The notes under the pieces: model-generated
Databases searched by the model: none
What the model was told of the DNA's origin: nothing
The model's input: the letters and a program-made list of their open reading frames with translations, nothing else
Shown here: positions 5,075-64,000 of the stretch, piece by piece
How positions within the stretch are numbered: the first letter of the stretch is position 1
How the letters are laid out: every line of letters begins with the position of its first letter
Program-made: the position numbers and the translations under genes
Assembly (NCBI GenBank): GCA_025352785.1
Contig: JANXSD010000009.1
Coordinates: 5,402 to 69,401, forward strand
DNA from: Bacteroidota bacterium
Lineage (GTDB): Bacteria; Bacteroidota; Bacteroidia; AKYH767-A; OLB10
Length of the DNA stretch: 64,000 nt
Direction: 5' to 3'

Positions 5075-5776
5075 ATGAATATAAACCATCAAATTTTTAC
5101 TCCTGAACTTCTTGAATACTTGTTGAGTTTTATTTCTGATAAAAGAAAAGAAAGATTCAATACTGTATTAGCAAATCGAACACGACATATTACGGTCGCG
5201 ATGGAAAATTCCACCGACGGACATAATACAAGTGCAGTAATGCGAAGCTGTGAATGTTTCGGGATTCAAGATATACATGTAATCGAAAATGGATCCTATA
5301 TTAAGCCAGCAAAAAATGTTACTAACGGAGCTTATAAATGGTTATCCATAAATAAATATAGCGATACAGAAAATAATACATTAAACTGCATTCAATCATT
5401 ACGAAAAAAAGGTTATCGCATTGTTGCAACAACGCCACATATTTTTGATAAAGCTGTGCATGAATTAGATATTTCAAAACCCATCGCATTATTTTTCGGT
5501 CAAGAACGAGATGGCATCTCACAATTATTGATGCGAGAAGCAGATGAATTTGCTATCATTCCTATGCAAGGTTTTTCAGAAAGTTTTAATGTTTCTGTTG
5601 CAGCATCCATTATGCTATACGACCTAACACAGCGATTAAGAGAAAACAATGCTATCAATTGGAAATTATCTGCGAAGGAAATTACCGAGATAAAAAAAGA
5701 TTGGACTTTGAAAAGTCTTTTTCGTCCCGAATTATTTATTCGTAGATTTGAAGAAGAACAATCTGCCAAAAAATAA
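5075..5776 (+). CDS. trmH: tRNA/rRNA 2'-O-methyltransferase, SpoU/TrmH family (likely tRNA Gm18)
   Basis: 233 aa SPOUT-class sequence with motifs NTSAVMRSCECFG and IVATTPH...ALFFGQERDGIS. The stop overlaps the next start (taATG). Confidence 0.7.
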   Translation: MNINHQIFTPELLEYLLSFISDKRKERFNTVLANRTRHITVAMENSTDGHNTSAVMRSCECFGIQDIHVIENGSYIKPAKNVTNGAYKWLSINKYSDTENNTLNCIQSLRKKGYRIVATTPHIFDKAVHELDISKPIALFFGQERDGISQLLMREADEFAIIPMQGFSESFNVSVAASIMLYDLTQRLRENNAINWKLSAKEITEIKKDWTLKSLFRPELFIRRFEEEQSAKK

Positions 5777-6438
5777 TGTTTACTGATATCCATACGCACC
5801 AAACAAAAGTATCCGAAGATTGCATCAGCATTTTTAATTTATTAGATACAGATTCCATTGCAAATGATCTGGAATCTATAAATAATTTTTCTATTGGAAT
5901 TCATCCACGATTTATTCGTGTGGATTCATCTCAAGAAGATATTCGAATTATTCAATTTCATGCAAAAAAGAAAAATGTTTTAGCCATTGGCGAATGTGGA
6001 CTAGACCGATTAAGTGAAACACAATTAGAGCTGCAAATTTCAATTTTCGAAGACATGGTGCGCCTCTCTGAAGAAATTAAAAAGCCGCTCATCATTCATT
6101 GTGTAAAGGCTTATGACGATATCCGAATCTTACATAAAAAATTAAAGCCGAAACAACCATGGATATTACATGGCTTTAATGTAAAAATATCAGTAGCCAA
6201 ACAACTACTCGAAGAAGGATTTTATTTTTCTTTTGGTAATGCAATTTTACATGACGATTCGATGGCCAAAACGGTTTTACCATCTATTCCAGATGGGAAA
6301 TTTTTCCTGGAAACAGATGCCTCTGAAGTCTCTATCAATGCTATCTTTGCACGCGCTGCAGTTTTGAGAAATACCACAGAAATTTCATTGAAATCGCAGC
6401 TTCACCACCAATTTTTAAAGTTATTCCATTATGTCTGA
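5776..6438 (+). CDS. tatD: TatD-family metal-dependent hydrolase/DNase
   Basis: Begins MFTDIHTHQ and contains GECGLD and IIHC motifs typical of TatD. It ends in TGA and overlaps the next gene by 8 nt. Confidence 0.65.
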   Translation: MFTDIHTHQTKVSEDCISIFNLLDTDSIANDLESINNFSIGIHPRFIRVDSSQEDIRIIQFHAKKKNVLAIGECGLDRLSETQLELQISIFEDMVRLSEEIKKPLIIHCVKAYDDIRILHKKLKPKQPWILHGFNVKISVAKQLLEEGFYFSFGNAILHDDSMAKTVLPSIPDGKFFLETDASEVSINAIFARAAVLRNTTEISLKSQLHHQFLKLFHYV

Positions 6439-9470: not shown

Positions 9471-10610
9471 TTAAACAAGAGATTCATCGTATACTTTTAC
9501 AGTATTGTAAAGTGTATCGCGTTCAATAGGAATTCTCCCCGAATCTTTTATTAAGTCGACTAACTGATCAGTAGATAAAACTGGCACTTGTTCTTCAGAA
9601 CCAGCCATTGAATAAATTTTCGTACTGTCATCGATGGTTCCATCTAAATCATCAACACCAAATGATTGCGTTAGTTGTGCCGTTGATCTTCCAATCATTG
9701 GCCAATATGCTTTAACATGGCCAAAATTATCGAGATAAATGCGACCAATTGCATACGTTTTTAAGTCTTCTATTAAATTTACTTCAGGCACATAACTCAT
9801 ATCGTTATCACCATTGCGAAATTTCAATGGAATAAATGTTTGAAATCCTTGTGTACGATCTTGCAAATCACGTAACCTTCGCATGTGATCCACTCGATGA
9901 GAATATGTTTCTATGTGTCCATAAAGCATCGTTGCATTACTTCGGATTCCAAATTGATGGGCTGTTTCATGAATCTCTAACCAGCGATTAGAATCACATT
10001 TATCACCCGCAATTTCCAAACGCACTTTTTCATCAAAAATTTCTGCGCCCCCGCCAGGGATTGAATCTAAACCATTCTCTTTAAGATATTGCAAACCTTC
10101 TTTGATACTCATTTTACCTTTGCGAAACATATAATCTAATTCCACAGAGGTAAACGCTTTTATGTGCAAATCAGGACGATGATCTTTTATTCGTTTTAAT
10201 AATTGAGCGAAAAAATGAACATCCATTTTCGGATGAACACCTCCAACAATATGAACTTCAGTAATGGCTTTGCCATCATATTCCTTCACTCGATTTACCA
10301 TCTGTTCAATGTCAAGCTCCCAACCATCTTCCCGCTTTTTATACTCACGTGAATAAGCGCAAAATTTACAAGCAAAAACACAAATGTTAGTAGGCTCAAT
10401 ATGAAAATTACGATTAAAATAAGTGTACTGACCATTTTTCTTTTCACGTACATAATTTGCAAGAACTCCTAATGATGATATCTCACCATTTTCATAAAGC
10501 CAAAGTGCATCCGCATCAGTGATTCTTACACCTTCAATAATTTTAGCTGCAATATTTCTTAAATTTATATTTGATGATTTTATAATTGTGTCAATTGCTG
10601 TATGATTCAT
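9471..10610 (-). CDS. Radical SAM enzyme of the MqnC/MqnE family (futalosine menaquinone pathway)
   Basis: CxxxCxxC-type motif (CKFCAYS) with GGxHP. The 379 aa size is typical of MqnE/MqnC/CofH-like enzymes. I cannot say by eye which member it is. Confidence 0.5.
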   Translation of the reverse strand: MNHTAIDTIIKSSNINLRNIAAKIIEGVRITDADALWLYENGEISSLGVLANYVREKKNGQYTYFNRNFHIEPTNICVFACKFCAYSREYKKREDGWELDIEQMVNRVKEYDGKAITEVHIVGGVHPKMDVHFFAQLLKRIKDHRPDLHIKAFTSVELDYMFRKGKMSIKEGLQYLKENGLDSIPGGGAEIFDEKVRLEIAGDKCDSNRWLEIHETAHQFGIRSNATMLYGHIETYSHRVDHMRRLRDLQDRTQGFQTFIPLKFRNGDNDMSYVPEVNLIEDLKTYAIGRIYLDNFGHVKAYWPMIGRSTAQLTQSFGVDDLDGTIDDSTKIYSMAGSEEQVPVLSTDQLVDLIKDSGRIPIERDTLYNTVKVYDESLV

Positions 10611-10637: not shown

Positions 10638-12248
10638 TCACTGTGGTAAATAAATAAATTTGACGGATTCAGTATTCACGTTTCCATCAAACTGAAAAAT
10701 ATAAACTCCAGCACTCATTCCAATTAATGATATTGTAAACGTATCACCCGGATTAATGTTTTGAACCTTCTCGAAAATCAACTGTCCTACGGAATTAAAT
10801 AACCTTAATGAAGATTTTTGACTTTCAGAAAATTTAGTTTTAACATTTATACTATTACCTCCAATAAGTGGATTAGGGAAAATCTCGATTCCACTGTTTT
10901 CACAATTAGCAATTGATGTTGAGTTTAATTTAAAGCTCGAACTTGCATAATTATTCACGCTATTACTATCTGTAATAGCTATTCGTACTTCAAATAAATT
11001 TTCACCAAAAATTCCAGAGATAGATGGCAATTGAATTGTTAAATTGGAATGAGGAGCAATGGTATCTAAACAAGTATATGTTTTTTCAATTCCTGAATTG
11101 ATACTATACCTAACAGGAATATTACTTAATGGAATATTGCCTTCATTTGCCAATCGAATTATAGGAATAAAGCAACGATTTCCAGCTAGCGTAACAGGAG
11201 AAAGTATACTATCAATTGAAAGCTCTTTATTAATGGAATTTAAAGAAATTTTTCCATTAGAATTTTTAATGGAGCTTCGTGCAACATCTAATGTAGTATA
11301 CATTTTTTTCGTTTGATCGACAGTGAAAAACATCATACACTTATCATCTGTATAATCCATATAATTCATATACATCACACCTGGACTGACGGTTGAACAA
11401 TTATCTAGGGAGGGAAATCCAGGACAACGAAAATGCGAATCACCTTGATCAGGAGTATCTGCGATTCCATCACCTTGAGCGGGATCAGGATTACAAGCAC
11501 CATTATCATCACCCCAGATATGTCGCATGCTTAACCAATGTCCAATTTCATGTGTTGTTGTACGACCTAAGTTGTAAGGTTTTTTCAAAAGCCCTATGCG
11601 TCCGAATGCGCTATTAATAATTACAATCCCATCACGAAAGGGCGACGTACCAGGTAATGCAGCAAATCCTAAAACATTATCTTTAAGTGAACAAACCCAA
11701 ATATTCAAATAGGAACTGTCAGGCCAAGCATTTTTACCACCTGCGGAATCAAAAAATATAGAAGTATCATTGTATGCAAATTCCACTTTACTCGTTAATG
11801 TTCTTGTAATTCCATCAGAGAAATTTCCAAGAGGATCTTGTTTTGCTAGTTGAAAACGAATTTTACTATCGTTAATTAAATTTTGCCAAACGGAAGGAAC
11901 ATCAATAATTGTTGAATTAATTGCAGTATAATCTTCGTTGAGTACATCAATTTGAGATTTTATTTGTTCATTAGAAATATTCTCTGCGATGTTGTGATAA
12001 AGCACATGAACAATAACAGGAATTATTAGAACGGGGGTTACTATGGAAGTGCTTTTTTGAGAATTTAAAGATTGCTGTATTAATGAATCAATTTCCTGAT
12101 AGTGCGTTTTCAATTTTAGATTTGAATCGGTCATCCACTTTTGCAGACCAATAGTTTCACATTTACGATTTTGAGCTTGCAATGGAAGAAATATAGTCTG
12201 AAGAAGGAGGCTATAGCAAACCACCCTTAAGAATAAACGGAAACTCAT
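10638..12248 (-). CDS. Secreted M43B (pappalysin/ulilysin-like) zinc metalloprotease with T9SS C-terminal sorting domain
   Basis: Signal peptide. Zinc site HEIGHWLSMRHIWGDD (HExxHxxxxxH), as in ulilysin HEVGHWLGLYH. C-terminal FPNP...GVYIFQF...KFIYLPQ resembles a Por_Secre_tail. It is a paralog of 15019-17232. Confidence 0.7.
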   Translation of the reverse strand: MSFRLFLRVVCYSLLLQTIFLPLQAQNRKCETIGLQKWMTDSNLKLKTHYQEIDSLIQQSLNSQKSTSIVTPVLIIPVIVHVLYHNIAENISNEQIKSQIDVLNEDYTAINSTIIDVPSVWQNLINDSKIRFQLAKQDPLGNFSDGITRTLTSKVEFAYNDTSIFFDSAGGKNAWPDSSYLNIWVCSLKDNVLGFAALPGTSPFRDGIVIINSAFGRIGLLKKPYNLGRTTTHEIGHWLSMRHIWGDDNGACNPDPAQGDGIADTPDQGDSHFRCPGFPSLDNCSTVSPGVMYMNYMDYTDDKCMMFFTVDQTKKMYTTLDVARSSIKNSNGKISLNSINKELSIDSILSPVTLAGNRCFIPIIRLANEGNIPLSNIPVRYSINSGIEKTYTCLDTIAPHSNLTIQLPSISGIFGENLFEVRIAITDSNSVNNYASSSFKLNSTSIANCENSGIEIFPNPLIGGNSINVKTKFSESQKSSLRLFNSVGQLIFEKVQNINPGDTFTISLIGMSAGVYIFQFDGNVNTESVKFIYLPQ

Positions 12249-12342: not shown

Positions 12343-13923
12343 TCACTGCCCACTTTTATAGAATTTGCACAACAGGTATATTCCTTCTTGATGAATTATG
12401 ATTTTGTCTTGAATCATATTTCTAGAGGTAAGGCTGATATCCCAAATTCTAAAATTTATATTAATTGGACAAACGATTACGGAATCTGGGCGGTTCGGAT
12501 AAAGCAACTTTGTTCGTTCAATAACATGCTGATTTATATTACCCGGTAAAAGCCCAACACCATAAATCGAATAAAAATTTTTATACCAAGGAAGTAAGAA
12601 AAAGGGCTCATGAATAATTGCTTTGTATCCAACAGGAATACTCCGCTGGGCTTCGCATAAAAAACTATCATCATCAGGTAATGGCAAAATAACACAATCT
12701 TTCGGAGTATTTGTTGCAATCCAAAAATGCATTTTGCTTAAATCGGATTTAAGATAATTTCCCATTTGATACCTTATTTGTAACTTTTCAATTGGTATAA
12801 ACGAGGAATTCGAAAGCGCAACAAATAAAAGTATTGAAACTGGCCAAATAGTAATTCTAAGAGCAGAAATAATTTTATCTGACAAACGGTTAAACCATAT
12901 AACTTTACTAAGGTATTTTGTTATGGGAATTATTCCTAGTAAGGTAATCCAACCAGTAGTTTTAAACCATTGCAATTTCCCTAATGATGTGAAGTTTAAT
13001 TTCTCAAATCCAACCCAATAGAATAAACAACCAATGGTAACAAATAGCATTAATGAGACTACCATTTTATTCCATTTTGTTTTACAAATTAATGAAAATA
13101 GTAATATCAAAATCCAGCAAAATATTGTTTTCAAATAATCCTTTAATGGGAAATAAGAAGGCAGATAGTGATGCGCATTTCGGAACTTAAATAAGATATC
13201 GTTATATAATTTAACATCTGCAATAGGTATTCCAGCAAATTGTCGCAGTATAATTGGAACTAACATTGCTGATGAGAAAATCAGGTAGGTTAGAAAACTA
13301 AAAAAAACTTTTTTATACTTCTGATCATTCATACTCAACGCTATTATCAACATCAAAAGAATTGCCACATGTAATCCAATTAAAACTTGAAATAACGAGG
13401 CAATTCCAGCCACTGCGGAAGCTAGGTAATAGCGATTTTTCATACACATAAAAATAGCAGTAATACTAAGAGCACTTGCGAAACAACTACAAGTAAGTTG
13501 ATTATCAAAAATGGAATTTGCACTTATTGTAAATGAATTTAGCAATAGAAAAATTATAAGTGGCCCAATAATGAATGCGTTTTTCCAGCCACTACCTTCT
13601 TCCGCAATTCTCCCCGTAAAATAGATCATGGTTCCTAAACAAATAAAATAAAATGTTATCACTGTAAGTGGCATGGGCAAAAAATAACCGAATCCATACA
13701 GTAGCCATGCAAAATAAAAACGAACCGTAAAATTAGTTACTTGAAAGGGGACAATATAATCATGCTGATATAACTCATGATGTAGTAATTTATAAACATA
13801 AGGCAAATGCTCCTCTTGGTCACCAGAATTAAAAGTATAACCATAAACTGCAATAAATAATAATCCAATTAATACCGTCCAACCTAACCTCTCATATTTC
13901 TTCCATTCTCTCATTCGCATCAT
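12343..13923 (-). CDS. Polytopic integral membrane protein of unknown function (possible GT-C-like glycosyltransferase)
   Basis: 526 aa with at least 10 hydrophobic segments and large loops. There is no recognisable catalytic motif. Confidence 0.3.
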   Translation of the reverse strand: MMRMREWKKYERLGWTVLIGLLFIAVYGYTFNSGDQEEHLPYVYKLLHHELYQHDYIVPFQVTNFTVRFYFAWLLYGFGYFLPMPLTVITFYFICLGTMIYFTGRIAEEGSGWKNAFIIGPLIIFLLLNSFTISANSIFDNQLTCSCFASALSITAIFMCMKNRYYLASAVAGIASLFQVLIGLHVAILLMLIIALSMNDQKYKKVFFSFLTYLIFSSAMLVPIILRQFAGIPIADVKLYNDILFKFRNAHHYLPSYFPLKDYLKTIFCWILILLFSLICKTKWNKMVVSLMLFVTIGCLFYWVGFEKLNFTSLGKLQWFKTTGWITLLGIIPITKYLSKVIWFNRLSDKIISALRITIWPVSILLFVALSNSSFIPIEKLQIRYQMGNYLKSDLSKMHFWIATNTPKDCVILPLPDDDSFLCEAQRSIPVGYKAIIHEPFFLLPWYKNFYSIYGVGLLPGNINQHVIERTKLLYPNRPDSVIVCPININFRIWDISLTSRNMIQDKIIIHQEGIYLLCKFYKSGQ

Positions 13924-23869: not shown

Positions 23870-24961
23870 ATGCTTGGCTTACGATTCTCCCAATTAATTC
23901 CACCGTCTGAAGGTTCCACCTACGATAAATTGTCGAAAATTTTTATGGAGTTGCTTCAATATACCGCTGCAGATGCTAATGAAGCATTGAGTTGGTTAAC
24001 GGAATTAGATCGGCAACATAATCTCACTACATCTGAATATGGAATGGGGGATTTTATTAATGATTTAATGGAAAATGGCTTCTTAAAAAAAAATGAGCAA
24101 CAAAACCTTGAAATAACTTCGAAAACGGAGCAAACAATTCGTCAGCAATCTTTAGAAGAGATTTTTGGCAAAATGAAAAAAGCTGGACTTGGTGGGCACA
24201 GAACTACAAAAACGGGACAAGGTGATGAAGTTTCATCAGATATTCGTCCGTGGCAATTTGGAGATACTACCGAACAAATTAATATGACCGACTCCTTACG
24301 AAATGCGCAAATAAGAAATGGTATTGAAGATTTTTCGATGAATGAAAATGATCTTGAAGTACAAGAGAGAGAACATAAAACTTTTAATGCCACGGTTTTG
24401 ATGATCGACATTTCACATTCCATGATTTTGTACGGAGAAGATCGTATTACTCCAGCAAAAAAAGTAGCTATGGCATTAGCTGAACTTATTCGTACACGTT
24501 ATCCCAAGGACACATTGGATATCGTAGTTTTTGGTGACGATGCATGGTCTATTGAAGTTAAAGATCTACCTTATTTGCAAGTTGGACCTTTTCATACTAA
24601 TACATCTGCTGGCATTACACTAGCAATGGATTTATTAAGAAAAAGAAAAACGCCAAACAAACAAATATTCATGATTACCGATGGTAAGCCCAGTTGCTTA
24701 AAAATTGGAAACAAATATTATAAAAATAGTTTTGGTTTAGATCAGAAAATTATAACTGACGTTTTTAATCTTGCAGGACAATGCAGAAGATTAAATATTC
24801 CTATCACAACATTCATGATTGCTAAAGATCCATATTTACAATCATTTGTTAGAGATTTTACACAAGTTAATAATGGAAGAGCATTTTATAGTTCACTAAA
24901 TGGATTAGGTGAATTCATGTTTGAAGATTATATTAAAAACAGAAAAAAAACAGTTCGATAA
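23870..24961 (+). CDS. von Willebrand factor A (VWA) domain protein with MIDAS motif
   Basis: DISHSM (DxSxS) MIDAS motif, then ...MITDGKPS. It sits immediately upstream of a ChlI-like ATPase. Confidence 0.6.
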   Translation: MLGLRFSQLIPPSEGSTYDKLSKIFMELLQYTAADANEALSWLTELDRQHNLTTSEYGMGDFINDLMENGFLKKNEQQNLEITSKTEQTIRQQSLEEIFGKMKKAGLGGHRTTKTGQGDEVSSDIRPWQFGDTTEQINMTDSLRNAQIRNGIEDFSMNENDLEVQEREHKTFNATVLMIDISHSMILYGEDRITPAKKVAMALAELIRTRYPKDTLDIVVFGDDAWSIEVKDLPYLQVGPFHTNTSAGITLAMDLLRKRKTPNKQIFMITDGKPSCLKIGNKYYKNSFGLDQKIITDVFNLAGQCRRLNIPITTFMIAKDPYLQSFVRDFTQVNNGRAFYSSLNGLGEFMFEDYIKNRKKTVR

Positions 24962-27121: not shown

Positions 27122-27820
27122 TCATTCTGCAATTAGCAGTCGAACTCCTTTGCCATGTAATGTTACAATTTCAATGGAGGGATCTTTCTTTAGATACTTC
27201 CTTAAACGTGTAACAAACACATCCATGCTTCTTCCATTGAAATAATTATCATCTCCCCAAATTAATTTCAATGCTTTTTGCCTAGGTAAAAGATCATTTT
27301 TATGAGTACATAACAATCGTAACAAATCTGCTTCTTTGGGAGAGATACTTATCGTCTCTTCTCCATCAAATATTTTCCTATACTTATAATCAAATTGATA
27401 CAAACCAATTTTAAAATTTGTTTGGTCTTCCATTTCTGTAATTCCCATTGATCGTCGAAGTATGACATTAATTTTATGGAGCAAAACATCTGTATCAAAC
27501 GGTTTAGTTAAATAATCATCTGCACCTGCTTTATATCCTTTCAGCATATCTTCTTTCATTCCTTTAGCAGTAAGGAAAATAATAGGAACTTTTTTGTCAA
27601 CTTCTCTAATTTGAGTTGCTACCGAAAAACCATCCAATTTAGGCATCATCACATCCAAAATACAAAGGTCGAATGATTTAGTTCCAAATGTTTCTAAGCC
27701 AGCGACCCCATCTCTTGTCAAGGTAACGTCGTAACTATTCAATTCAAGATAGTTTTTCAACACATTGCCGAAATTAATATCATCTTCCACTAATAATATT
27801 TTAGCTTTTATTGTTTGCAT
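27122..27820 (-). CDS. OmpR-family response regulator
   Basis: Receiver motifs ILLVEDD, DLCILDVMMP and IFLTAK, plus a winged-helix C-terminus. Confidence 0.85.
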   Translation of the reverse strand: MQTIKAKILLVEDDINFGNVLKNYLELNSYDVTLTRDGVAGLETFGTKSFDLCILDVMMPKLDGFSVATQIREVDKKVPIIFLTAKGMKEDMLKGYKAGADDYLTKPFDTDVLLHKINVILRRSMGITEMEDQTNFKIGLYQFDYKYRKIFDGEETISISPKEADLLRLLCTHKNDLLPRQKALKLIWGDDNYFNGRSMDVFVTRLRKYLKKDPSIEIVTLHGKGVRLLIAE

Positions 27821-37122: not shown

Positions 37123-37998
37123 ATGAAAAGGATACTATTTCTAACTGCTTTCCTATTGATTCAGCAAGCAATTATTGCACAACGTAATGGCGTATTTTTA
37201 TTTAAAGGAAATGCAGATTTCAAACTCAGTTTTAACACTTGTATTTATGATAAAGTTTATGATGATGATGGTGAAAAAAAGACTATTGCTAATACAAAAA
37301 GCACAATAACTAGCCTAGAGTTTAGAGGCGGTTTAACAAACAAAATTAATGCGCTAATTGTTATACCTTATATAATTAACAAAGTAAATGGAACACCTGC
37401 AAATCAGTCATCAGAAAGTATCTCTACCCAATATTCTTCTACAGGAGATTTAGATTTAGGAGTTGAATATCTATTTATCAATAATGATCCGTTGAAACTA
37501 ATTTTAGGCCTACATCAAAGTATTGGAACGGGGAATAACATCCAACAAATAGGTTTGAATACTGGCTACAAGGATTATCATGAGCAACTAAAAATAAAAT
37601 TGGCCTTTGAGCCTTCTACAAAGTGGAATTTTATTTCATGTGTCGGATTCACGAATCATAACAAAGGGTATGGGGATGAAATATCAGGTAAGATTGAATT
37701 AAATATTATTGCATTAAAAAATCTTTGGTTTAACTTTCGCGTGGAAGGAATTCAACCATTAGAGAATGGTGACAAAATCAGTAAACCTTTTGCCAATGGC
37801 AAACTAATTTCTGATGGATTGTTTTATGGATTATATGCTCAAAATAGGGGCTATTTCATGTTTAGTCCTGAGCTACATTATGAATTCACAAAAAAATGGG
37901 GAACTTATACATCAATAAAAAAATGTTTCATTGGGCAAGAATACCAATCGGGAATTACTTATGAATTTGGTGTGCACTATCAACTGGAACCAAATTGA
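37123..37998 (+). CDS. Hypothetical secreted/outer-membrane beta-rich protein
   Basis: Signal peptide MKRILFLTAFLLIQQAIIAQ, a pattern of alternating hydrophobic residues, and a C-terminal aromatic. Confidence 0.3.
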   Translation: MKRILFLTAFLLIQQAIIAQRNGVFLFKGNADFKLSFNTCIYDKVYDDDGEKKTIANTKSTITSLEFRGGLTNKINALIVIPYIINKVNGTPANQSSESISTQYSSTGDLDLGVEYLFINNDPLKLILGLHQSIGTGNNIQQIGLNTGYKDYHEQLKIKLAFEPSTKWNFISCVGFTNHNKGYGDEISGKIELNIIALKNLWFNFRVEGIQPLENGDKISKPFANGKLISDGLFYGLYAQNRGYFMFSPELHYEFTKKWGTYTSIKKCFIGQEYQSGITYEFGVHYQLEPN

Positions 37999-44817: not shown

Positions 44818-46146
44818 TTAACGCCTTGCGGGCATATTTTTCATCATTTTTTGCGCATTGCCATTGCTAAACATTTTCATCATCTTACGCATATCGTCGA
44901 ATTGTTTTATCAAACGATTTACCTCCTGAATAGTTGTTCCGCTACCTTCTGCAATTCGTTTACGTCGTGATCCATTTAACACATCAGGATGCTCACGTTC
45001 TGCGTTGGTCATAGAATGAATAATTGCTTCAATCGACTTGAACGAATTCTCATCAATATCCACATCCTTCACCATCTTACCCATTCCTGGAATCATTCCC
45101 ATGAGATCTTTAATATTTCCCATCTTTTTAATCTGCTGAAGCTGAGACAGGAAATCATTAAAGCTAAATTGATTCTTAGCAATTTTCTTTTGTAACTCAG
45201 CAGCTTGTTTCGCATCAAATTGCTCTTGCGCTTTCTCAACGAGGGAAACGATATCACCCATCCCGAGAATACGATCCGCCATACGTTCTGGATAGAATAC
45301 ATCGAGTGCATCCATCTTCTCACCAGTACCAACAAATTTGATTGGCTTATTCACCACCGATTTGATGGAAAGAGCAGCACCACCACGTGTATCACCATCT
45401 AATTTGGTGAGAACAACACCATCAAAATTCAGACGATCATTAAAAGTTTTAGCGGTATTTACAGCATCCTGACCAGTCATTGCATCTACTACAAAAAGGG
45501 TTTCAGAAGGGTTTAAAATTTCCTTCAAACGAGCAATTTCATTCATCATCACCTCGTCAATTGCTAAACGACCAGCAGTATCAATGATGATGGTATTATA
45601 ACCTTTTGCCTTCGCAACTTCAAGTGCATTCTTTGCAATCTGAACCGGATCTTTATTATCAGCTTCACTGTAAACCTCAACGCCAATTTGTTCACCAATT
45701 ACGTGCAATTGATTGATAGCAGCAGGTCGGTAAACGTCACATGCCACCAACAAAACCTGACGACTTCTTTTGGTCTTTAAAAAGTTAGCAAGCTTACCAG
45801 AAAGTGTTGTTTTTCCAGATCCTTGTAAACCCGACATTAAAATAATGGAAGGGTTCGACTTTAGATTAATATCCGTTGCTTGACCACCCATCAATTTGAT
45901 GAGTTCTTCCTGAACGATTTTAATCATCAATTGCCCAGGAGAAACTGAAATCAAGACATCTCTTCCTAGAGCGATATCTTTGACAGTATCAGTAAAAGTT
46001 TTAGCAACTTTATAGTTAACATCAGCATCGAGCAAGGCCTTACGAACCTCTTTCAGCGTCTCCGCAACGTTAATCTCAGTAATTTTTCCCTGACCTTTTA
46101 GCAGTTTAAATGCCCTGTCAAGCTTATCGGATAAATTTTCAAACAT
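44818..46146 (-). CDS. ffh: Signal recognition particle protein Ffh
   Basis: N domain (MFENLSDKLDRAFKLLKGQG), G domain (GLQGSGKTT, DTAGR, TKLDGD) and a Met-rich M domain. The start is trimmed from the track's 46230 to the ATG at 46146. Confidence 0.9.
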   Translation of the reverse strand: MFENLSDKLDRAFKLLKGQGKITEINVAETLKEVRKALLDADVNYKVAKTFTDTVKDIALGRDVLISVSPGQLMIKIVQEELIKLMGGQATDINLKSNPSIILMSGLQGSGKTTLSGKLANFLKTKRSRQVLLVACDVYRPAAINQLHVIGEQIGVEVYSEADNKDPVQIAKNALEVAKAKGYNTIIIDTAGRLAIDEVMMNEIARLKEILNPSETLFVVDAMTGQDAVNTAKTFNDRLNFDGVVLTKLDGDTRGGAALSIKSVVNKPIKFVGTGEKMDALDVFYPERMADRILGMGDIVSLVEKAQEQFDAKQAAELQKKIAKNQFSFNDFLSQLQQIKKMGNIKDLMGMIPGMGKMVKDVDIDENSFKSIEAIIHSMTNAEREHPDVLNGSRRKRIAEGSGTTIQEVNRLIKQFDDMRKMMKMFSNGNAQKMMKNMPARR

Positions 46147-46484
46147 AATATAGAAATACGGAGGCGAAAGTACGAAAAAAAGGTCAAAAATTGCCATGAA
46201 AACAACTAACACGTTCCATTTTAAATTCACTACAGGTAAGTTTGTAGAGATAAATATTAGAAGAGATAAAGCTCATTTTTCAGCTTGTTCAAAATTATTA
46301 AAGGCAAAATACTTGCATTTGACAGTACTACAAATTACTTTTCCGTTTTAATTCAGATATTGCCGTTTCTAATTGTGCTGTTTTTATTTCATTTAGGATC
46401 TTATTGTTCTGCTAACTTTAAACTTTTAAACTGGAAAATAATTTGGGTAAGCATTATAATTCAAAATTGATCATTGCAAAATAA

Positions 46485-47993
46485 GTGAAACAAATAATAT
46501 TTAAATACATAATCTTGGGAATCATTTTATTGATTCCTAAGATTTCTTGTTGTCAATACACCAATAACATCTGGTGCTTTGGAGATAGTGCTGGTATTAA
46601 TTTTAAGACAAATCCACCGACTGCAATTACCTCTGGACTTTTAACTAAAAGTGGCTCAGCAAGCATTACGGATAATTTTGGAAATATTTTATTTTACGGT
46701 TCAGCTTCCGACGATAGTATTAAATCTTCTGGTAAAGATAGTTCAGGAATATTAAAAAATAGGTTGAATGCAACAAAACAAAACGGGACTAATCTGTACA
46801 GTGAGTGGTATCATGTGATGACCATTATACCAAAATCTATAAGCGATAGTACCTTTTATGTTTTTACTGGAGGCGTTTTACATTCGTTTGGGTTGTATTA
46901 TAGTGTTGTCGATTTAAAGCAAAACACTGGGTTGGGTGCAGTGGTGCAGAAAAATGTTCAGTTGGATACTTTTCCCGTGTTTGATGGAATTACTGCTGTT
47001 AAACATGGCAACGGAAATGACTGGTGGCTGCTATATCAAAGATGGGACGCATTGAGTTCGCAGCAAAATAATGAATTTCATCTGCTGCTAGTCGATTCGT
47101 CAGGGATTCAAATGCAATCCTTACAAAATATCGGAAGTCTTCATGATAACGGTGCTGGTGACCTAAGTTTTAATTCGAATGGAACTAAAATGATCTATGT
47201 TGAATGGAGAGGAATGATTGAGCTGTATTATTTTGATCGGTTTACTGGAATTATTTTAAATCCAATAAATATTGAACCCGAACTTTCAGTTAATCCCGTT
47301 CCTTATTATACTAGCGCAGTTTTTTCTTCAAATGGAAGAATTTTATATGTCACATCGTATCAGTCAGTTTATCATAAGGCAAGCTATCTGTATCAATACG
47401 ATCTTACAGCCGCCAACATCGCAGCAAGCAGAATTTTACTTGATTCTGTTTGATACCCAATTGCTATGGGAGTAATGGAAATGGGGCCAGATAAAAAAAT
47501 CTATTTGTCTGCAGAAAACGATATCGTTACCATACCTTATCCTGATTCAGTACATACATCAGTGTGCGATAATCTTTCAGTAATTAATTATCCAGATAGC
47601 CTTGGCCAGGCTTGTAATTTTCAGCCTTATAGTTTTTATCAAGGTGGAAACAAAGTTTATATTGGACTTCCGAACAACCCAGATTATACTTTAGGACCTA
47701 TGGATACACTAACGGCAGTGCATGAACTAACCCCGGTTTTAACAACTAACGAACTTAAAATATTTTATCATCCAGCCTGAGATATTGCATTTATTAACGC
47801 AGATAAATTAACTGGTAGAAAATATACCTTGAGCTTATTTGATATAACAGGTAAATTAATTTTTAGAGAAAATGGAACTCTAAGCTCACAATATTTTACC
47901 AAAGATTTAAGCATGCAAAGCTTTGGGATAGGGGTTTATATTGCTACCCTGAAAACTGACAAGGAAAGATTAAATAAGAGATTTGCGAAATAA
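46485..47993 (+). pseudogene. T9SS-sorted secreted adhesin-like protein interrupted by two in-frame TGA codons (47451-47453 and 47778-47780)
   Basis: Three consecutive ORFs are all in the same frame: 46485-47453, 47466-47780 and 47781-47993. The last piece is a Por_Secre_tail (GVYIATLKTDKERLNKRFAK). The N-terminal part is paralogous to the gene at 62066. Confidence 0.5.
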
Positions 47994-54439: not shown

Positions 54440-55210
54440 ATGTTTAAAAAGAACCGGTATAAAGATTTTCTTAAGGAAACTGGAGAAATTTCAGCCTTTG
54501 CCGGAAGGTTTTTTAAGGAAGGTTTTAAACCTAGATATGAATTTGCCGAACTCATTAGGCAATGTTTTATCATCGGATATCAATCGTTGCCATTAGTATG
54601 TGTAACAGCATTCATTATGGGATTAGTTTTAACAGTTCAATCGCGTCCTACACTTGAAGAATTTGGCGCTGAATCCTATTTGCCAGCGATGGTGGCAATA
54701 TCTGTTATTCGTGAGATTGGTCCTGTTATTACTGCCTTAATATGTGCAGGTAAAATCGGATCTAGTATAGGTGCTGAATTAGGATCTATGCGCGTTACTG
54801 AACAAATAGATGCGATGGAAGTGTCAGGAACAAATCCATTTAAATACTTAGTAGTAACAAGAATTTTAGCATGTACACTGATGCTCCCGCTGCTTGTAAT
54901 AGTTGGTGATACCATATCATTATACGCTTCATATATTGGAGTCAATTTAAAAGGAGTTGTTAGTTGGCATTTGTATTACACACAAGTTTTCGACACTATT
55001 GATTTCAGTGATTTAATACCCGCATTTATTAAATCCTATTTTTTTGGTTTTGTAATTGGGCTTATCGGATGCTATAAAGGATATAACTCAAAAAAAGGAA
55101 CGGAAGGTGTTGGACTCGCTGCAAATTCAGCAGTAGTTGTTTCATCATTATTAATATTTATCCTCGATTTAATTGCAGTACAAATTGCTGATTTAATGGG
55201 CCTCACTTGA
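54440..55210 (+). CDS. mlaE: MlaE-family ABC transporter permease
   Basis: Conserved MlaE region ...PVITALICAGKIGSSIGAELGSMRVTEQIDAMEVSG. Its stop overlaps the mlaF start (ATGA). Confidence 0.8.
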   Translation: MFKKNRYKDFLKETGEISAFAGRFFKEGFKPRYEFAELIRQCFIIGYQSLPLVCVTAFIMGLVLTVQSRPTLEEFGAESYLPAMVAISVIREIGPVITALICAGKIGSSIGAELGSMRVTEQIDAMEVSGTNPFKYLVVTRILACTLMLPLLVIVGDTISLYASYIGVNLKGVVSWHLYYTQVFDTIDFSDLIPAFIKSYFFGFVIGLIGCYKGYNSKKGTEGVGLAANSAVVVSSLLIFILDLIAVQIADLMGLT

Positions 55211-62065: not shown

Positions 62066-64000
62066 GTGCGTTCAACTACTCTCATTTCCACCTTCTTTAG
62101 TCTTTGTTTGATATTGTTATTCTCCGCTTCCAAAGGGCAGAAGCAAGATAGATATTGGTATTTTGGAAATAGAGCAGCTCTAAATTTCAATACAACGCCG
62201 CCCACTCCTCTCGCAAATTCAAATATGAATGCTTATGAAGGATGTGCCACGGCATCAGATACTGCGGGAAATTTATTATTTTATACTGATGGCGCTACTG
62301 TCTGGAACGCCAATCATGTTCCGATGTTAAATGGAAGCGGACTTTTCGGATACGGTAGTACTCAAGCTGCGATAGTTGTTCCAGCTCCACTTAACTTAAA
62401 TAAATATTACATATTTACGGTGGATACTAATGGAGGTATTAGAGGTTTCTGTTATAGTGAAGTTGATATGACCCTGAATGGAGGATTGGGAGACATAACT
62501 ATAAAAAACACACTTATCCAAACTCCAGTTGCCGAAAAACTTACTGCTACACATGACGCAAATAATGTGGATGTATGGGTCGTAGTTCATGGATGGAATT
62601 CAAATGCTTTTTACTCCTATAAAGTTACATCGACAGGTGTAAACTTAACGCCAATGATTAGTTCGGTGGGCGCTGTTCAGGGTGGTGTTTACACCAATTC
62701 GCACGGATACATGAAAATTTCTCCGAATTCAAAAAGGATAGCTTGTGCTATTAGAGGGTTACGACAAGCCGAATCATTCGACTTTAACAACTCCTCTGGT
62801 CAAATTAGTAACCCTGTAAACTTTACTTATACACGTGATGTGTATGGGTTAGAGTTTTCGCCAAATAGTAATCTCCTTTATGTGGCAAATTTCTCATCTA
62901 ATTCTGACATCAATCAATACGATCTTTTGGCTGGATCTCCAGCAGCAATCGCAGCATCAGCAACCGTTATAGGTACTTCAAGTGGATTTATGGGTGCTAT
63001 GCAATTAGGACCCAATGGTAAGATTTATGGCACTCAATTTCTAAAAACCTCTCTTATTGTAATCGATCAGCCTAACCTTTCTGGTACCTTCTGCGCTTTC
63101 AATAATTCAGGTCAAAGTGTTGCCCCTGGTACTACCACTAATTACGGATTACCAAATATTTTGTTAAGCTATTTTATCACTGCTGATTTTACTTATGTCG
63201 ATACCTGCTCGAGTGCTCCAACTACATTCACATTACAGTTTTCACCAGGAATCGCCGATTCTGTTCGATGGAATTTTGCCGATCCTGCATCAGGAGCTGC
63301 AAATACGAGCATACAAAGCAATCCGCAACATACCTTTGTGGCAGGTGGCTATTATAGTGTTCAACTAATTGCTTACCAAGGAGTATTATCTGATACCGTA
63401 ACCCACCTAATTCAAATCATCGAGCGACCAGCTCCCAATTTAGGTAATGATATCTCTGCATGTCAGGGAAATTCATTCATGTTTTATCCGGGAAATTTTA
63501 CTGGCGATATCATTACCTGGAAAGACAACAGCTCAGGACCAACATTTACATCGACCATTTCAGATACTATTTGGGTTACTGTTGATCGTATCGGTTGCAT
63601 TGGAAGTGATACTGTAATCTTAAAAATAAATCCGATTCCGTTTATAGATTTTGGTTTAGATAAAACAATATGTAGTAGCGACACTTTGCGCTTAGATGCC
63701 ACAACACCATCTGCAACCTATTTATGGCAAGATGGAAGTACTAAATCCTATTATGATGTAAGCGTTACTAACAATTATGGCGTAAGTATAACTGTAAATG
63801 GATGCATTGGAGGAGATACTATTTATGTTACCTCAAATCCAGCACCTATTGTATATTTAGGTAATGATACTACCATTTGTAAAGGCTTTCAATTGTTTCT
63901 TGATGTAACAAGTCCGGATCCAAATGCAACTTATAATTGGCAAGATGGAACTGCAAATTCCATCTATTTCGTTTCGAATCCGGGTCTATATTATGTAACC
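62066..64000 (+). CDS. Large secreted repetitive adhesin-like protein (partial, runs off the window); intact paralog of the 46485 pseudogene
   Basis: Absent from the ORF track. A continuous frame opens after TAA at 61994. GTG at 62066 gives MRSTTLISTFFSLCLILLFSASKGQKQ, then DRYWYFGNRAALNFNTTPPT..., which parallels NIWCFGDSAGINFKTNPPT... in the 46485 ORF. Downstream there are repeated modules of about 80 aa (LGNDxxxCxG...ATYxWQDGST...NGC..DTI). Confidence 0.5.
   Translation, partial: MRSTTLISTFFSLCLILLFSASKGQKQDRYWYFGNRAALNFNTTPPTPLANSNMNAYEGCATASDTAGNLLFYTDGATVWNANHVPMLNGSGLFGYGSTQAAIVVPAPLNLNKYYIFTVDTNGGIRGFCYSEVDMTLNGGLGDITIKNTLIQTPVAEKLTATHDANNVDVWVVVHGWNSNAFYSYKVTSTGVNLTPMISSVGAVQGGVYTNSHGYMKISPNSKRIACAIRGLRQAESFDFNNSSGQISNPVNFTYTRDVYGLEFSPNSNLLYVANFSSNSDINQYDLLAGSPAAIAASATVIGTSSGFMGAMQLGPNGKIYGTQFLKTSLIVIDQPNLSGTFCAFNNSGQSVAPGTTTNYGLPNILLSYFITADFTYVDTCSSAPTTFTLQFSPGIADSVRWNFADPASGAANTSIQSNPQHTFVAGGYYSVQLIAYQGVLSDTVTHLIQIIERPAPNLGNDISACQGNSFMFYPGNFTGDIITWKDNSSGPTFTSTISDTIWVTVDRIGCIGSDTVILKINPIPFIDFGLDKTICSSDTLRLDATTPSATYLWQDGSTKSYYDVSVTNNYGVSITVNGCIGGDTIYVTSNPAPIVYLGNDTTICKGFQLFLDVTSPDPNATYNWQDGTANSIYFVSNPGLYYVT

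What the first reader, a model, noticed from the sequence alone, without database searches (positions are those of the whole stretch)
46485..47993. T9SS adhesin-like gene kept in one frame across two internal TGA codons
Three ORFs (46485-47453, 47466-47780 and 47781-47993) lie in the identical frame, separated only by TGA at 47451 and TGA at 47778. The last piece is an unmistakable T9SS C-terminal sorting domain, so the locus was one 502-codon secreted protein. Two nonsense codons with no frameshift, both TGA, point to one of three things: a very recent pseudogene, sequencing or assembly artefacts, or (least likely) local recoding by selenocysteine or readthrough. TGA is a genuine stop elsewhere in this window (the tatD and mlaE ends), so a genome-wide code change is excluded. 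The first TGA aligns to a Ser/Gly-rich position in the intact paralog at 62066 (GTSSGFMGAMQLGPNGKIY versus DSV*YPIAMGVMEMGPDKKIY).
Basis: seen in the sequence. Interest (0 to 1): 0.5.

Follow-up and report, generated by a model that had tools for sequence, protein, structure and literature searches.

The report
Recently broken secreted-protein gene (pseudogene)
A gene for a secreted beta-propeller protein carries two real point mutations that created stop codons, so it is most likely a recently inactivated copy of a large gene family: an ordinary finding, not a change in how the genetic code is read.

Summary
One frame runs from GTG 46485 to TAA 47993 and is broken only by TGA at 47451 and TGA at 47778, with no frameshift. 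More than 1100 full-length homologs of about 500 aa from Bacteroidia genomes cover all three pieces. The T9SS C-terminal sorting domain spans the second TGA.

- **Second TGA:** it replaces a Trp present in 88 of 89 homologs, and the three closest homolog genes have TGG there. A single G-to-A change explains it.
- **First TGA:** it falls in a variable loop (Pro/Ser/Thr/Asn).
- **Not sequencing errors:** three assemblies from other sequencing runs, forming two haplotypes 99.85-99.98% identical to the window, carry the same TGAs.
- **No intact allele:** none turned up in any collection searched.
- **TGA is a normal stop here:** six other genes end on it at their expected C-termini.
- **No selenocysteine signal:** there is no SECIS-like hairpin, and no homolog has Cys at either site.
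- **Signs of relaxed constraint:** since the haplotypes split, the gene gained three amino-acid changes and one silent change, while 2.6 kb of flank gained none. One change is Asp-to-Tyr at a residue invariant in 89 of 89 homologs.
- **Young:** overall decay is not yet measurable.

Verdict: a young, ordinary nonsense pseudogene. Low interest.

The parts
46485..47450 (+). Fragment 1 (322 codons): GTG start, hydrophobic N-terminal signal-peptide-like segment, and most of the beta-propeller domain
   Evidence: Aligns to residues 1-316 of intact homologs. Gene callers in other assemblies report it as a 312-322 aa protein.
47451..47453 (+). First in-frame TGA (codon 323), followed by T. It lies at a variable loop position of the family.
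   Evidence: The closest homolog genes have GGG, CCT and TCA here. The column holds P 31, S 19, T 10, N 9 among 89 homologs. The same TGA is present in L001, L002 and L003.
47454..47777 (+). Fragment 2 (108 codons): remainder of the propeller, including the conserved GLPNNPDY...DT motif, the linker, and the first strand of the sorting domain
   Evidence: alignment; model of the homolog P0001 (propeller to about residue 400, low-confidence linker 403-413, C-terminal domain 418-496).
47778..47780 (+). Second in-frame TGA (codon 432), followed by G. It replaces a nearly invariant Trp (TGG to TGA).
   Evidence: TGG in all three closest homolog genes. Trp in 88 of 89 family members. The same TGA is present in L001 and L003.
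47781..47993 (+). Fragment 3 (70 codons plus TAA): the rest of the T9SS type A C-terminal sorting domain
   Evidence: PF18962 aa 430-498 and TIGR04183 aa 437-501. 64-76% identical to the sorting domains of the closest homologs.

Best explanation
This is a young pseudogene. It was one member of a large, often multi-copy Bacteroidia family of about 500-aa secreted proteins, built from a signal peptide, a beta-propeller and a T9SS type A sorting domain. Two independent point mutations turned sense codons into TGA. The second is a TGG (Trp) to TGA transition. The first arose from an unknown sense codon, possibly TCA or GGA. Translation should stop at codon 323. The 322-aa product would lack the last one and a half propeller blades and the whole sorting domain, so it could not be exported by the T9SS and probably would not fold (inference from the model). 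Both mutations predate the split of the two haplotypes sampled. They are recent on the scale of the family, because the rest of the sequence shows no measurable decay. Shown here: the stops are real, they are shared between haplotypes, the ancestral state of the second was Trp, and TGA is a normal terminator in this genome. Inferred: loss of function and lack of product.
For: (1) Full-length intact homologs cover all three fragments colinearly.
(2) The second TGA aligns with TGG in the three closest genes and with Trp in 88 of 89 homologs.
(3) The same TGAs occur in L001, L002 and L003, from three other sequencing runs, at 99.85-99.98% identity to the window and in two haplotypes.
(4) Every copy of this gene in the roughly 15-billion-protein collection is called as a 312-322 aa truncated protein. 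No intact allele above 62% identity exists there, in the JGI metagenome contigs, or in the GTDB species representatives.
(5) Between the haplotypes, the gene carries 5 nucleotide differences in 4 codons, and 2614 nt of flank (folD, ffh) carries none (Fisher p = 0.005 counting nucleotides, 0.013 counting events). Three changes alter the protein and one is silent. They include Asp407Tyr at a residue invariant in 89 of 89 homologs, and Met98Lys at a mostly Met position.
(6) TGA is a true terminator here. Six other genes end on TGA at the ends of their Pfam profiles and meet another stop within 0-19 codons.
(7) There is no SECIS-like fold (z = -1.6 and -0.6), no Rfam match and no tRNA gene nearby.
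(8) The first TGA maps to a loop between strands 311-316 and 320-327 of a confident homolog model (pLDDT 91.7), so truncation there removes part of the propeller and the sorting domain.
Against: Apart from the two stops, the gene looks intact. There are no indels. Its 10 departures from columns conserved in at least 90% of the family match those of its intact closest relatives (10, 11, 11). Relative-rate tests show no acceleration before or after the first stop. That fits a very recent inactivation but equally a still-constrained gene. The polymorphism evidence for relaxed constraint rests on only four events. The excess of variants could also reflect gene conversion from a paralog or diversifying selection on a surface protein. 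Expression was not and cannot be measured here.
Confidence: 0.85

Rival explanations
1. The gene is still functional at a low level (a 'pseudo-pseudogene'). Near-cognate tRNA-Trp occasionally reads each UGA, so a small amount of full-length protein is made. At the second site this would restore the ancestral Trp exactly. The stops would act as a strong dampener of expression.
For: The frame is fully preserved across both stops with no indels, and conserved motifs downstream are intact. Both stops are UGA, the stop described as leaky and read as Trp (PMC9122581). The second replaces an invariant Trp. Published surveys report widespread in-frame stops, shared between close strains, with dN/dS below 1 (PMC7918605), and low-level translation of many Salmonella pseudogenes (PMC9122581).
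Against: Two stops must both be bypassed, so the yield is the product of two small probabilities. The first TGA is followed by T, the same context as all six genuine TGA terminators in the window. The second is followed by G. Neither is the A reported to favour UGA suppression by tRNA-Trp (cited in PMC9122581). No stimulatory structure follows either stop. One haplotype has since replaced an invariant Asp downstream with Tyr. The stops are conserved only among strains at least 99.85% identical, which says nothing about selection.
Confidence: 0.07
2. The 322-aa N-terminal fragment is itself the functional product: a shortened periplasmic protein that no longer needs the T9SS.
For: It keeps the start codon and signal-peptide-like N-terminus, and gene callers report it as a protein in four assemblies.
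Against: The stop falls inside a propeller blade, between strands 311-316 and 320-327 of the homolog model. It removes about one and a half blades plus the most conserved motif of the family, GLPNNPDY. No family member among the 120 listed ends naturally at this position. One haplotype changed a mostly conserved Met to Lys at residue 98.
Confidence: 0.05
3. The TGAs are sequencing or assembly artefacts and the real gene is intact.
For: None beyond the prior that assembled metagenome sequences contain errors.
Against: Identical TGAs appear in three assemblies from other sequencing runs (SRR23617199, SRR23617308, SRR20627846), on two distinguishable haplotypes.
Confidence: 0.01
4. One or both TGAs encode selenocysteine, or the organism reads TGA as Trp or Gly (genetic code 4 or 25).
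For: In-frame TGA. The second TGA sits at a Trp position, as expected under code 4.
Against: TGA ends six other genes at their normal C-termini, and no other gene in 64 kb has an in-frame TGA. There is no SECIS-like hairpin. Homologs have Trp and Pro/Ser/Thr at the two sites, never Cys. No tRNA gene lies in the window.
Confidence: 0.02

Closest known systems
Bacterial nonsense-mutation pseudogenes and population-level in-frame stop polymorphisms (Belinky et al. 2021, PMC7918605; Feng et al. 2022, PMC9122581)
   Same: Stop codons created by single-base changes in an otherwise intact gene, at least one by a G-to-A transition. [quoted passage not shown]
   Different: Two stops in one gene rather than one. 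No expression data. The gene is a non-essential member of a multi-copy family in an uncultured Bacteroidia lineage.
T9SS type A cargo proteins (C-terminal sorting domain TIGR04183 / PF18962)
   Same: The C-terminal 70-80 residues match the sorting-domain models. The homolog model shows a beta-sandwich C-terminal domain after a flexible linker. Another cargo gene with the same domain lies in the window at 10638-12248.
   Different: The sorting domain is cut off from the N-terminal part by two stops, one of them inside the domain, so the locus can no longer encode a cargo protein.
Bacterial selenoprotein genes (UGA plus a downstream SECIS hairpin)
   Same: In-frame UGA codons.
   Different: No SECIS-like hairpin, no Cys in homologs at either position, and the ancestral residue at the second site is Trp.
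UGA-to-Trp decoding (code 4 lineages; tRNA-Trp with a 4-bp anticodon stem, PMC13092985)
   Same: UGA at a conserved Trp position.
   Different: Here UGA is a regular terminator in the same 64 kb, and only this one gene is affected. The tRNA-Trp gene is not in the window and could not be examined.

Membership tests
T9SS type A cargo protein | C-terminal sorting domain matching TIGR04183 / PF18962 | tested here: met
   TIGR04183 scores 25.3 bits (cut-off 23). PF18962 scores 25.9 bits (cut-off 27, just below), E 1.2e-5, on the joined translation.
T9SS type A cargo protein | One uninterrupted reading frame linking the signal peptide, the passenger domain and the sorting domain | tested here: not met
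   TGA at codons 323 and 432, both real.
T9SS type A cargo protein | T9SS machinery encoded in the genome | not testable with these tools
   Only 64 kb is available. Another gene with the sorting domain (M43 peptidase, 10638-12248) is present, which suggests the system exists.
Nonsense pseudogene | Frame disrupted relative to intact full-length homologs | tested here: met
   Over 100 intact homologs of 483-540 aa cover 95-100% of the joined sequence.
Nonsense pseudogene | The disruptions are genuine, not sequencing errors | tested here: met
   The same TGAs occur in three other assemblies and two haplotypes.
Nonsense pseudogene | Relaxed selective constraint | tested here: inconclusive
   In favour: 3 amino-acid changes to 1 silent change, Asp407Tyr at an invariant residue, and an excess of variants over the flanks (p = 0.005-0.013). 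Neutral: no rate acceleration and no excess loss of conserved residues against the closest homologs. This is too few events to decide.
Nonsense pseudogene | No full-length product made | not testable with these tools
   Needs proteomics or reporter assays.
Bacterial selenoprotein gene | SECIS hairpin directly downstream of the UGA | tested here: not met
   Folds of the 70 and 101 nt after each TGA are no more stable than shuffled sequence (z = -1.6, -0.6, -1.1, -0.6). No Rfam match.
Bacterial selenoprotein gene | Homologs carry Cys or Sec at the aligned position | tested here: not met
   Trp in 88 of 89 at the second site; Pro/Ser/Thr/Asn at the first.
Bacterial selenoprotein gene | selA, selB, selC and selD present | not testable with these tools
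   The whole genome is not available. No tRNA gene in the window.
Genome-wide TGA reassignment (code 4 or 25) | TGA not used as a terminator; in-frame TGAs in many genes | tested here: not met
   6 of 44 other genes end on TGA at their profile ends, with another stop 0-19 codons later. This locus is the only one on the + strand where long open stretches flank an in-frame TGA; one further pair, on the - strand at 24144, was not examined.
Programmed stop-codon readthrough | Stop conserved in diverged orthologs, with purifying selection downstream | tested here: inconclusive
   The stops are seen only in strains at least 99.85% identical. The next relatives, at 62% identity or less, are intact and not syntenic.
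Programmed stop-codon readthrough | Leaky stop context or a stimulatory downstream structure | tested here: not met
   The contexts are TGA-T and TGA-G. All genuine TGA terminators in the window are also TGA-T. No significant structure follows either stop.

The most novel reading that the evidence does not exclude
The two UGAs are tolerated, or even kept, because tRNA-Trp occasionally reads them. That would restore the invariant Trp at the second site and place Trp in a permissive loop at the first. The locus would then yield a trickle of full-length T9SS cargo, acting as a heavily damped but revertible copy. This could be helped by an unusual tRNA-Trp encoded elsewhere in the genome.
Probability: 0.05. 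Interest if true: 0.5.

Novelty: new member of a known kind. Interest (0 to 1): 0.12.

Why it matters
It matters little beyond correct annotation. The locus should be annotated as one pseudogene rather than as two or three small hypothetical proteins, as gene callers did in at least four assemblies. It is a clean, dated example of very early gene decay in an uncultured Bacteroidia population: both stops shared by both sampled haplotypes, with the first missense hits just appearing. The family it belongs to has over 1100 members and no Pfam model for its predicted propeller domain, and its function is unknown. That family is the more interesting open question.

Tried and rejected
- **Selenocysteine:** I folded the RNA downstream of each TGA and found nothing beyond shuffled controls. 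Rfam at a permissive threshold gave only sub-threshold plastid-family noise, located on an unrelated hairpin.
- **Code change:** rejected from stop usage, from the downstream extension of every TGA-terminated gene, and from Pfam profile ends.
- **Artefact:** rejected because other assemblies carry the same TGAs.
- **Search for an intact allele or close ortholog:** the protein search found nothing between 62% and 99% identity. GTDB species genomes gave a best hit of 57-67%. An exact DNA pattern around the first TGA found nothing in JGI metagenome contigs. A protein-based scan there gave at most 34% identity. The ancestral codon at the first TGA is therefore undetermined.
- **Synteny with the closest homologs:** absent for P0001 and P0003, so strict orthology cannot be claimed.
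- **Measuring decay:** departures from conserved columns, identity by segment and Tajima relative-rate tests showed no significant acceleration. Two of 21 post-stop comparisons reached p of about 0.03-0.07, which is not convincing. dN/dS against homologs was not attempted, because synonymous sites are saturated at about 68% nucleotide identity.
- **Function from fold:** Foldseek against the PDB returned only generic propellers such as WD40 proteins, YncE and lactonase, so no specific function or adhesin role can be assigned.
- **Lookup of the window's own protein (P0122):** this returned nothing.

Full report
**Observation.** From GTG at 46485, one frame reads 322 codons, TGA (47451-47453), 108 codons, TGA (47778-47780), 70 codons, and TAA (47991-47993). 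There is no frameshift. The joined translation matches the T9SS type A sorting domain at its C-terminus. PF18962 covers aa 430-498 (E 1.2e-5, 25.9 bits against a cut-off of 27). TIGR04183 covers aa 437-501 (25.3 bits against a cut-off of 23). The Pfam match begins before codon 432, so the second TGA lies inside the domain.

**It was one gene.** A protein search with the joined sequence returned 1127 homologs. The best 120 are nearly all 483-540 aa, cover 95-100% of the query, and come from Bacteroidia, Bacteroidota or Chitinophagales genomes assembled from metagenomes. Where they are named at all, the name is 'T9SS type A sorting domain-containing protein'. The closest intact relatives are P0001 (62% identity), P0003 (60%) and P0004 (57%). 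Alignments run colinearly across both stops. Several pairs of family members share the same longest-contig length, which suggests more than one copy per genome. I did not verify this. The window itself holds a distant paralog starting at 62066, 29% identical over the first 357 aa (E 3e-28), with a PKD domain further on.

**What the two TGAs replaced.**
- The second TGA aligns with TGG in the genes of all three closest homologs and with Trp in 88 of 89 aligned family members. A single G-to-A transition explains it.
- The first TGA sits at a variable position. The three closest genes have GGG, CCT and TCA there, and the family column holds Pro 31, Ser 19, Thr 10 and Asn 9. TCA or GGA would each be one step from TGA, but the ancestral codon cannot be determined.

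**The stops are real.** The only near-identical proteins in the roughly 15-billion-sequence collection form one cluster of four 312-322 aa proteins, all ending at the first TGA. I recovered three of their contigs from Logan assemblies of three sequencing runs. L001 (SRR23617199) is 99.85% identical to the window over 3966 nt, and L002 (SRR23617308) is 99.98% identical over 11157 nt. L003 (SRR20627846) has 6 mismatches over its 1843 nt. All three carry TGA at the first site. L001 and L003 reach the second site and carry TGA there too; L002 ends before it. L001 and L003 form a second haplotype, so sequencing or assembly error is excluded. No intact allele and no ortholog between 62% and 99% identity turned up in the protein collection, the GTDB species genomes or the JGI metagenome contigs.

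**Not a code change, not selenocysteine.**
- Among 45 long ORFs in the window, stops are TAA 32, TGA 7 and TAG 6.
- The six TGA-terminated genes other than this one meet another in-frame stop after 0-19 codons.
- Those with a Pfam match that reaches the C-terminus end at the end of their profiles: MlaE at 211/212, Trans_reg_C at 76/77, and Por_Secre_tail at 74/75 in an M43 peptidase.
- A scan of all six frames for long open stretches on both sides of a single stop found this locus, three ordinary neighbouring gene pairs separated by TAA or TAG plus a spacer, and two shorter pairs on the - strand (TGA at 24144, 118 and 61 codons; TAA at 9473). I did not follow up the two - strand pairs.
- RNA downstream of each TGA folds no better than shuffled sequence (z = -1.6 and -0.6 for 70 nt; -1.1 and -0.6 for 101 nt).
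- Rfam gives nothing relevant, and no tRNA gene lies in the window.
- No homolog has Cys at either site.
- The first TGA is followed by T, exactly like all six genuine TGA terminators in the window. The second is followed by G. Neither is the A that favours UGA suppression by tRNA-Trp, as cited in PMC9122581.

**How old, and is it decaying?** Measured against the family, the gene looks fresh.
- It departs from 10 of the 102 columns conserved in at least 90% of members. Its intact closest relatives depart at 10, 11 and 11, because most departures are shared within the clade.
- Departures private to the window gene are L68I, N361C, L386Q, R390K and the Trp-to-stop change.
- Tajima relative-rate tests against P0001, P0003 and P0004, with seven outgroups and a family consensus, show no consistent acceleration before or after the first stop.

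So the inactivation is recent relative to divergence at about 60% identity. That is a coarse clock.

Within the population there is a finer signal. Haplotype A (window, L002) and haplotype B (L001, L003) differ at 5 nucleotides in 4 codons inside the gene, and at none of the 2614 flanking nucleotides in folD and ffh (Fisher p = 0.005 counting nucleotides, 0.013 counting events). Three of the four codon changes alter the protein:
- **Residue 98:** Met (ATG) in haplotype B and in most of the family, Lys (AAA) in haplotype A.
- **Residue 191:** Ser in A against Gly in B.
- **Residue 407:** Asp in A and in 89 of 89 homologs, Tyr in B.

Both haplotypes have therefore taken hits at conserved positions since they split. 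One hit is upstream and one downstream of the first stop, and both stops were already present. This is what neutral decay predicts, but four events cannot prove it. Gene conversion from a paralog could also produce clustered variants.

**What the protein was.** An AlphaFold2 model of the closest intact homolog P0001, built on an 89-sequence alignment, is confident (mean pLDDT 91.7, pTM 0.78). It shows an all-beta domain from about residue 20 to 400, a low-confidence linker (403-413), and a beta-sandwich at 418-496, which is the sorting domain. Foldseek against the PDB returns only generic beta-propellers, such as WD40 proteins, E. coli YncE and the lactonase PpgL, at 8-13% identity. The 'adhesin-like' label therefore has no support. 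The passenger domain is a propeller of unknown function with no Pfam model.

The first TGA corresponds to P0001 residue 317, in the turn between strands 311-316 and 320-327. A product ending there would lack roughly the last one and a half blades. It would also lack the most conserved motif of the family (GLPNNPDY...DT), the linker and the whole sorting domain. My inference is that it would not fold properly, and it could not be recognised by the T9SS.

**Mechanism and rivals.** The best explanation (confidence about 0.85) is a young nonsense pseudogene in a family with many similar members, where loss of one copy costs little. [quoted passage not shown]

The main rival (about 0.07) is low-level readthrough of both UGAs by tRNA-Trp, which would recreate the ancestral Trp at the second site. 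It is not excluded. It is disfavoured by the need to bypass two stops, the non-leaky contexts, the lack of downstream structure, and the Asp407Tyr change in one haplotype. A functional truncated fragment (about 0.05), selenocysteine or a code change (about 0.02), and an artefact (about 0.01) are unlikely, for the reasons given above.

**Verdict.** The feature is ordinary: a recently inactivated copy of an uncharacterised propeller-type T9SS cargo gene. Interest is low, about 0.12. The most novel reading not excluded is damped expression through double UGA readthrough, with a probability of about 0.05.

Noticed in passing
window 46511-46544 (+): A 14-bp hairpin with a 6-nt loop lies inside the signal-peptide coding region, 27 nt after the GTG start: AATCTTGGGAATCA / TGATTCCTAAGATT, followed by TCTTGTTGTC. 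A 101-nt stretch containing it folds at -22.9 kcal/mol (z = -5.3; 0 of 200 shuffles fold as well). The terminator scan flags it, and the weak Rfam noise hits fall on it. It occurs once in the window and is absent from the same region of the three closest homolog genes. It could be an internal terminator or a translation-blocking structure, or a coincidence of hydrophobic codons.
   Followed up: partly
window 47781-47870 versus L019 (gene of P0004, JGI metagenome 3300035209): Directly after the second TGA, about 90 nt of the sorting-domain coding sequence has about 6 mismatches to the P0004 gene, all synonymous by my reading of the alignments, and the 30 residues are identical. The rest of the two genes is about 69-76% identical at the nucleotide level and 57% at the protein level. 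This suggests recombination or gene conversion of sorting-domain segments between family members.
   Followed up: partly
L001 and L003 ends (window 47836); L002 end (window 47671): Both haplotype-B contigs, from different sequencing runs, stop at exactly the same base inside the sorting-domain region, and the haplotype-A contig stops 165 nt earlier. This hints at a branch in the assembly graph there, from a repeat shared with paralogs or further polymorphism. It is unexplained.
   Followed up: no
P0051 (374 aa, seen on 9 contigs, longest 52.7 kb): This family member starts at a position equivalent to window residue ~139 and lacks the signal peptide and first blades, while the similar P0006 is a full 505 aa. 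It may be another truncated or decaying copy, or a miscalled start.
   Followed up: no
window 62066-64000 (+), runs off the window end: An intact distant paralog. The same propeller-type N-terminal domain (29% identity, E 3e-28) is followed by a PKD domain and further repeats instead of the short linker and sorting domain.
   Followed up: partly
window, all TGA-terminated genes (5776-6438, 10638-12248, 12343-13923, 27122-27820, 37123-37998, 54440-55210): All six genuine TGA terminators are followed by T, as is the first in-frame TGA of the pseudogene. This may be a strong-termination context preference in this genome. The sample is small.
   Followed up: no
window 46042 (within ffh, 44818-46230, - strand) and 37440: The window carries A at 46042 where all three other assemblies carry G. 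L002 alone differs at 37440. Apart from the pseudogene, the strains are almost identical over 11 kb.
   Followed up: no
window 17230, 37066, 52183 (+): Three pairs of long neighbouring ORFs share a frame and are separated by a single TAA or TAG, with no other in-frame stop in the 54-84 nt spacer. Their distinct starts and spacers suggest separate genes that share a frame by chance. They were not examined further.
   Followed up: no
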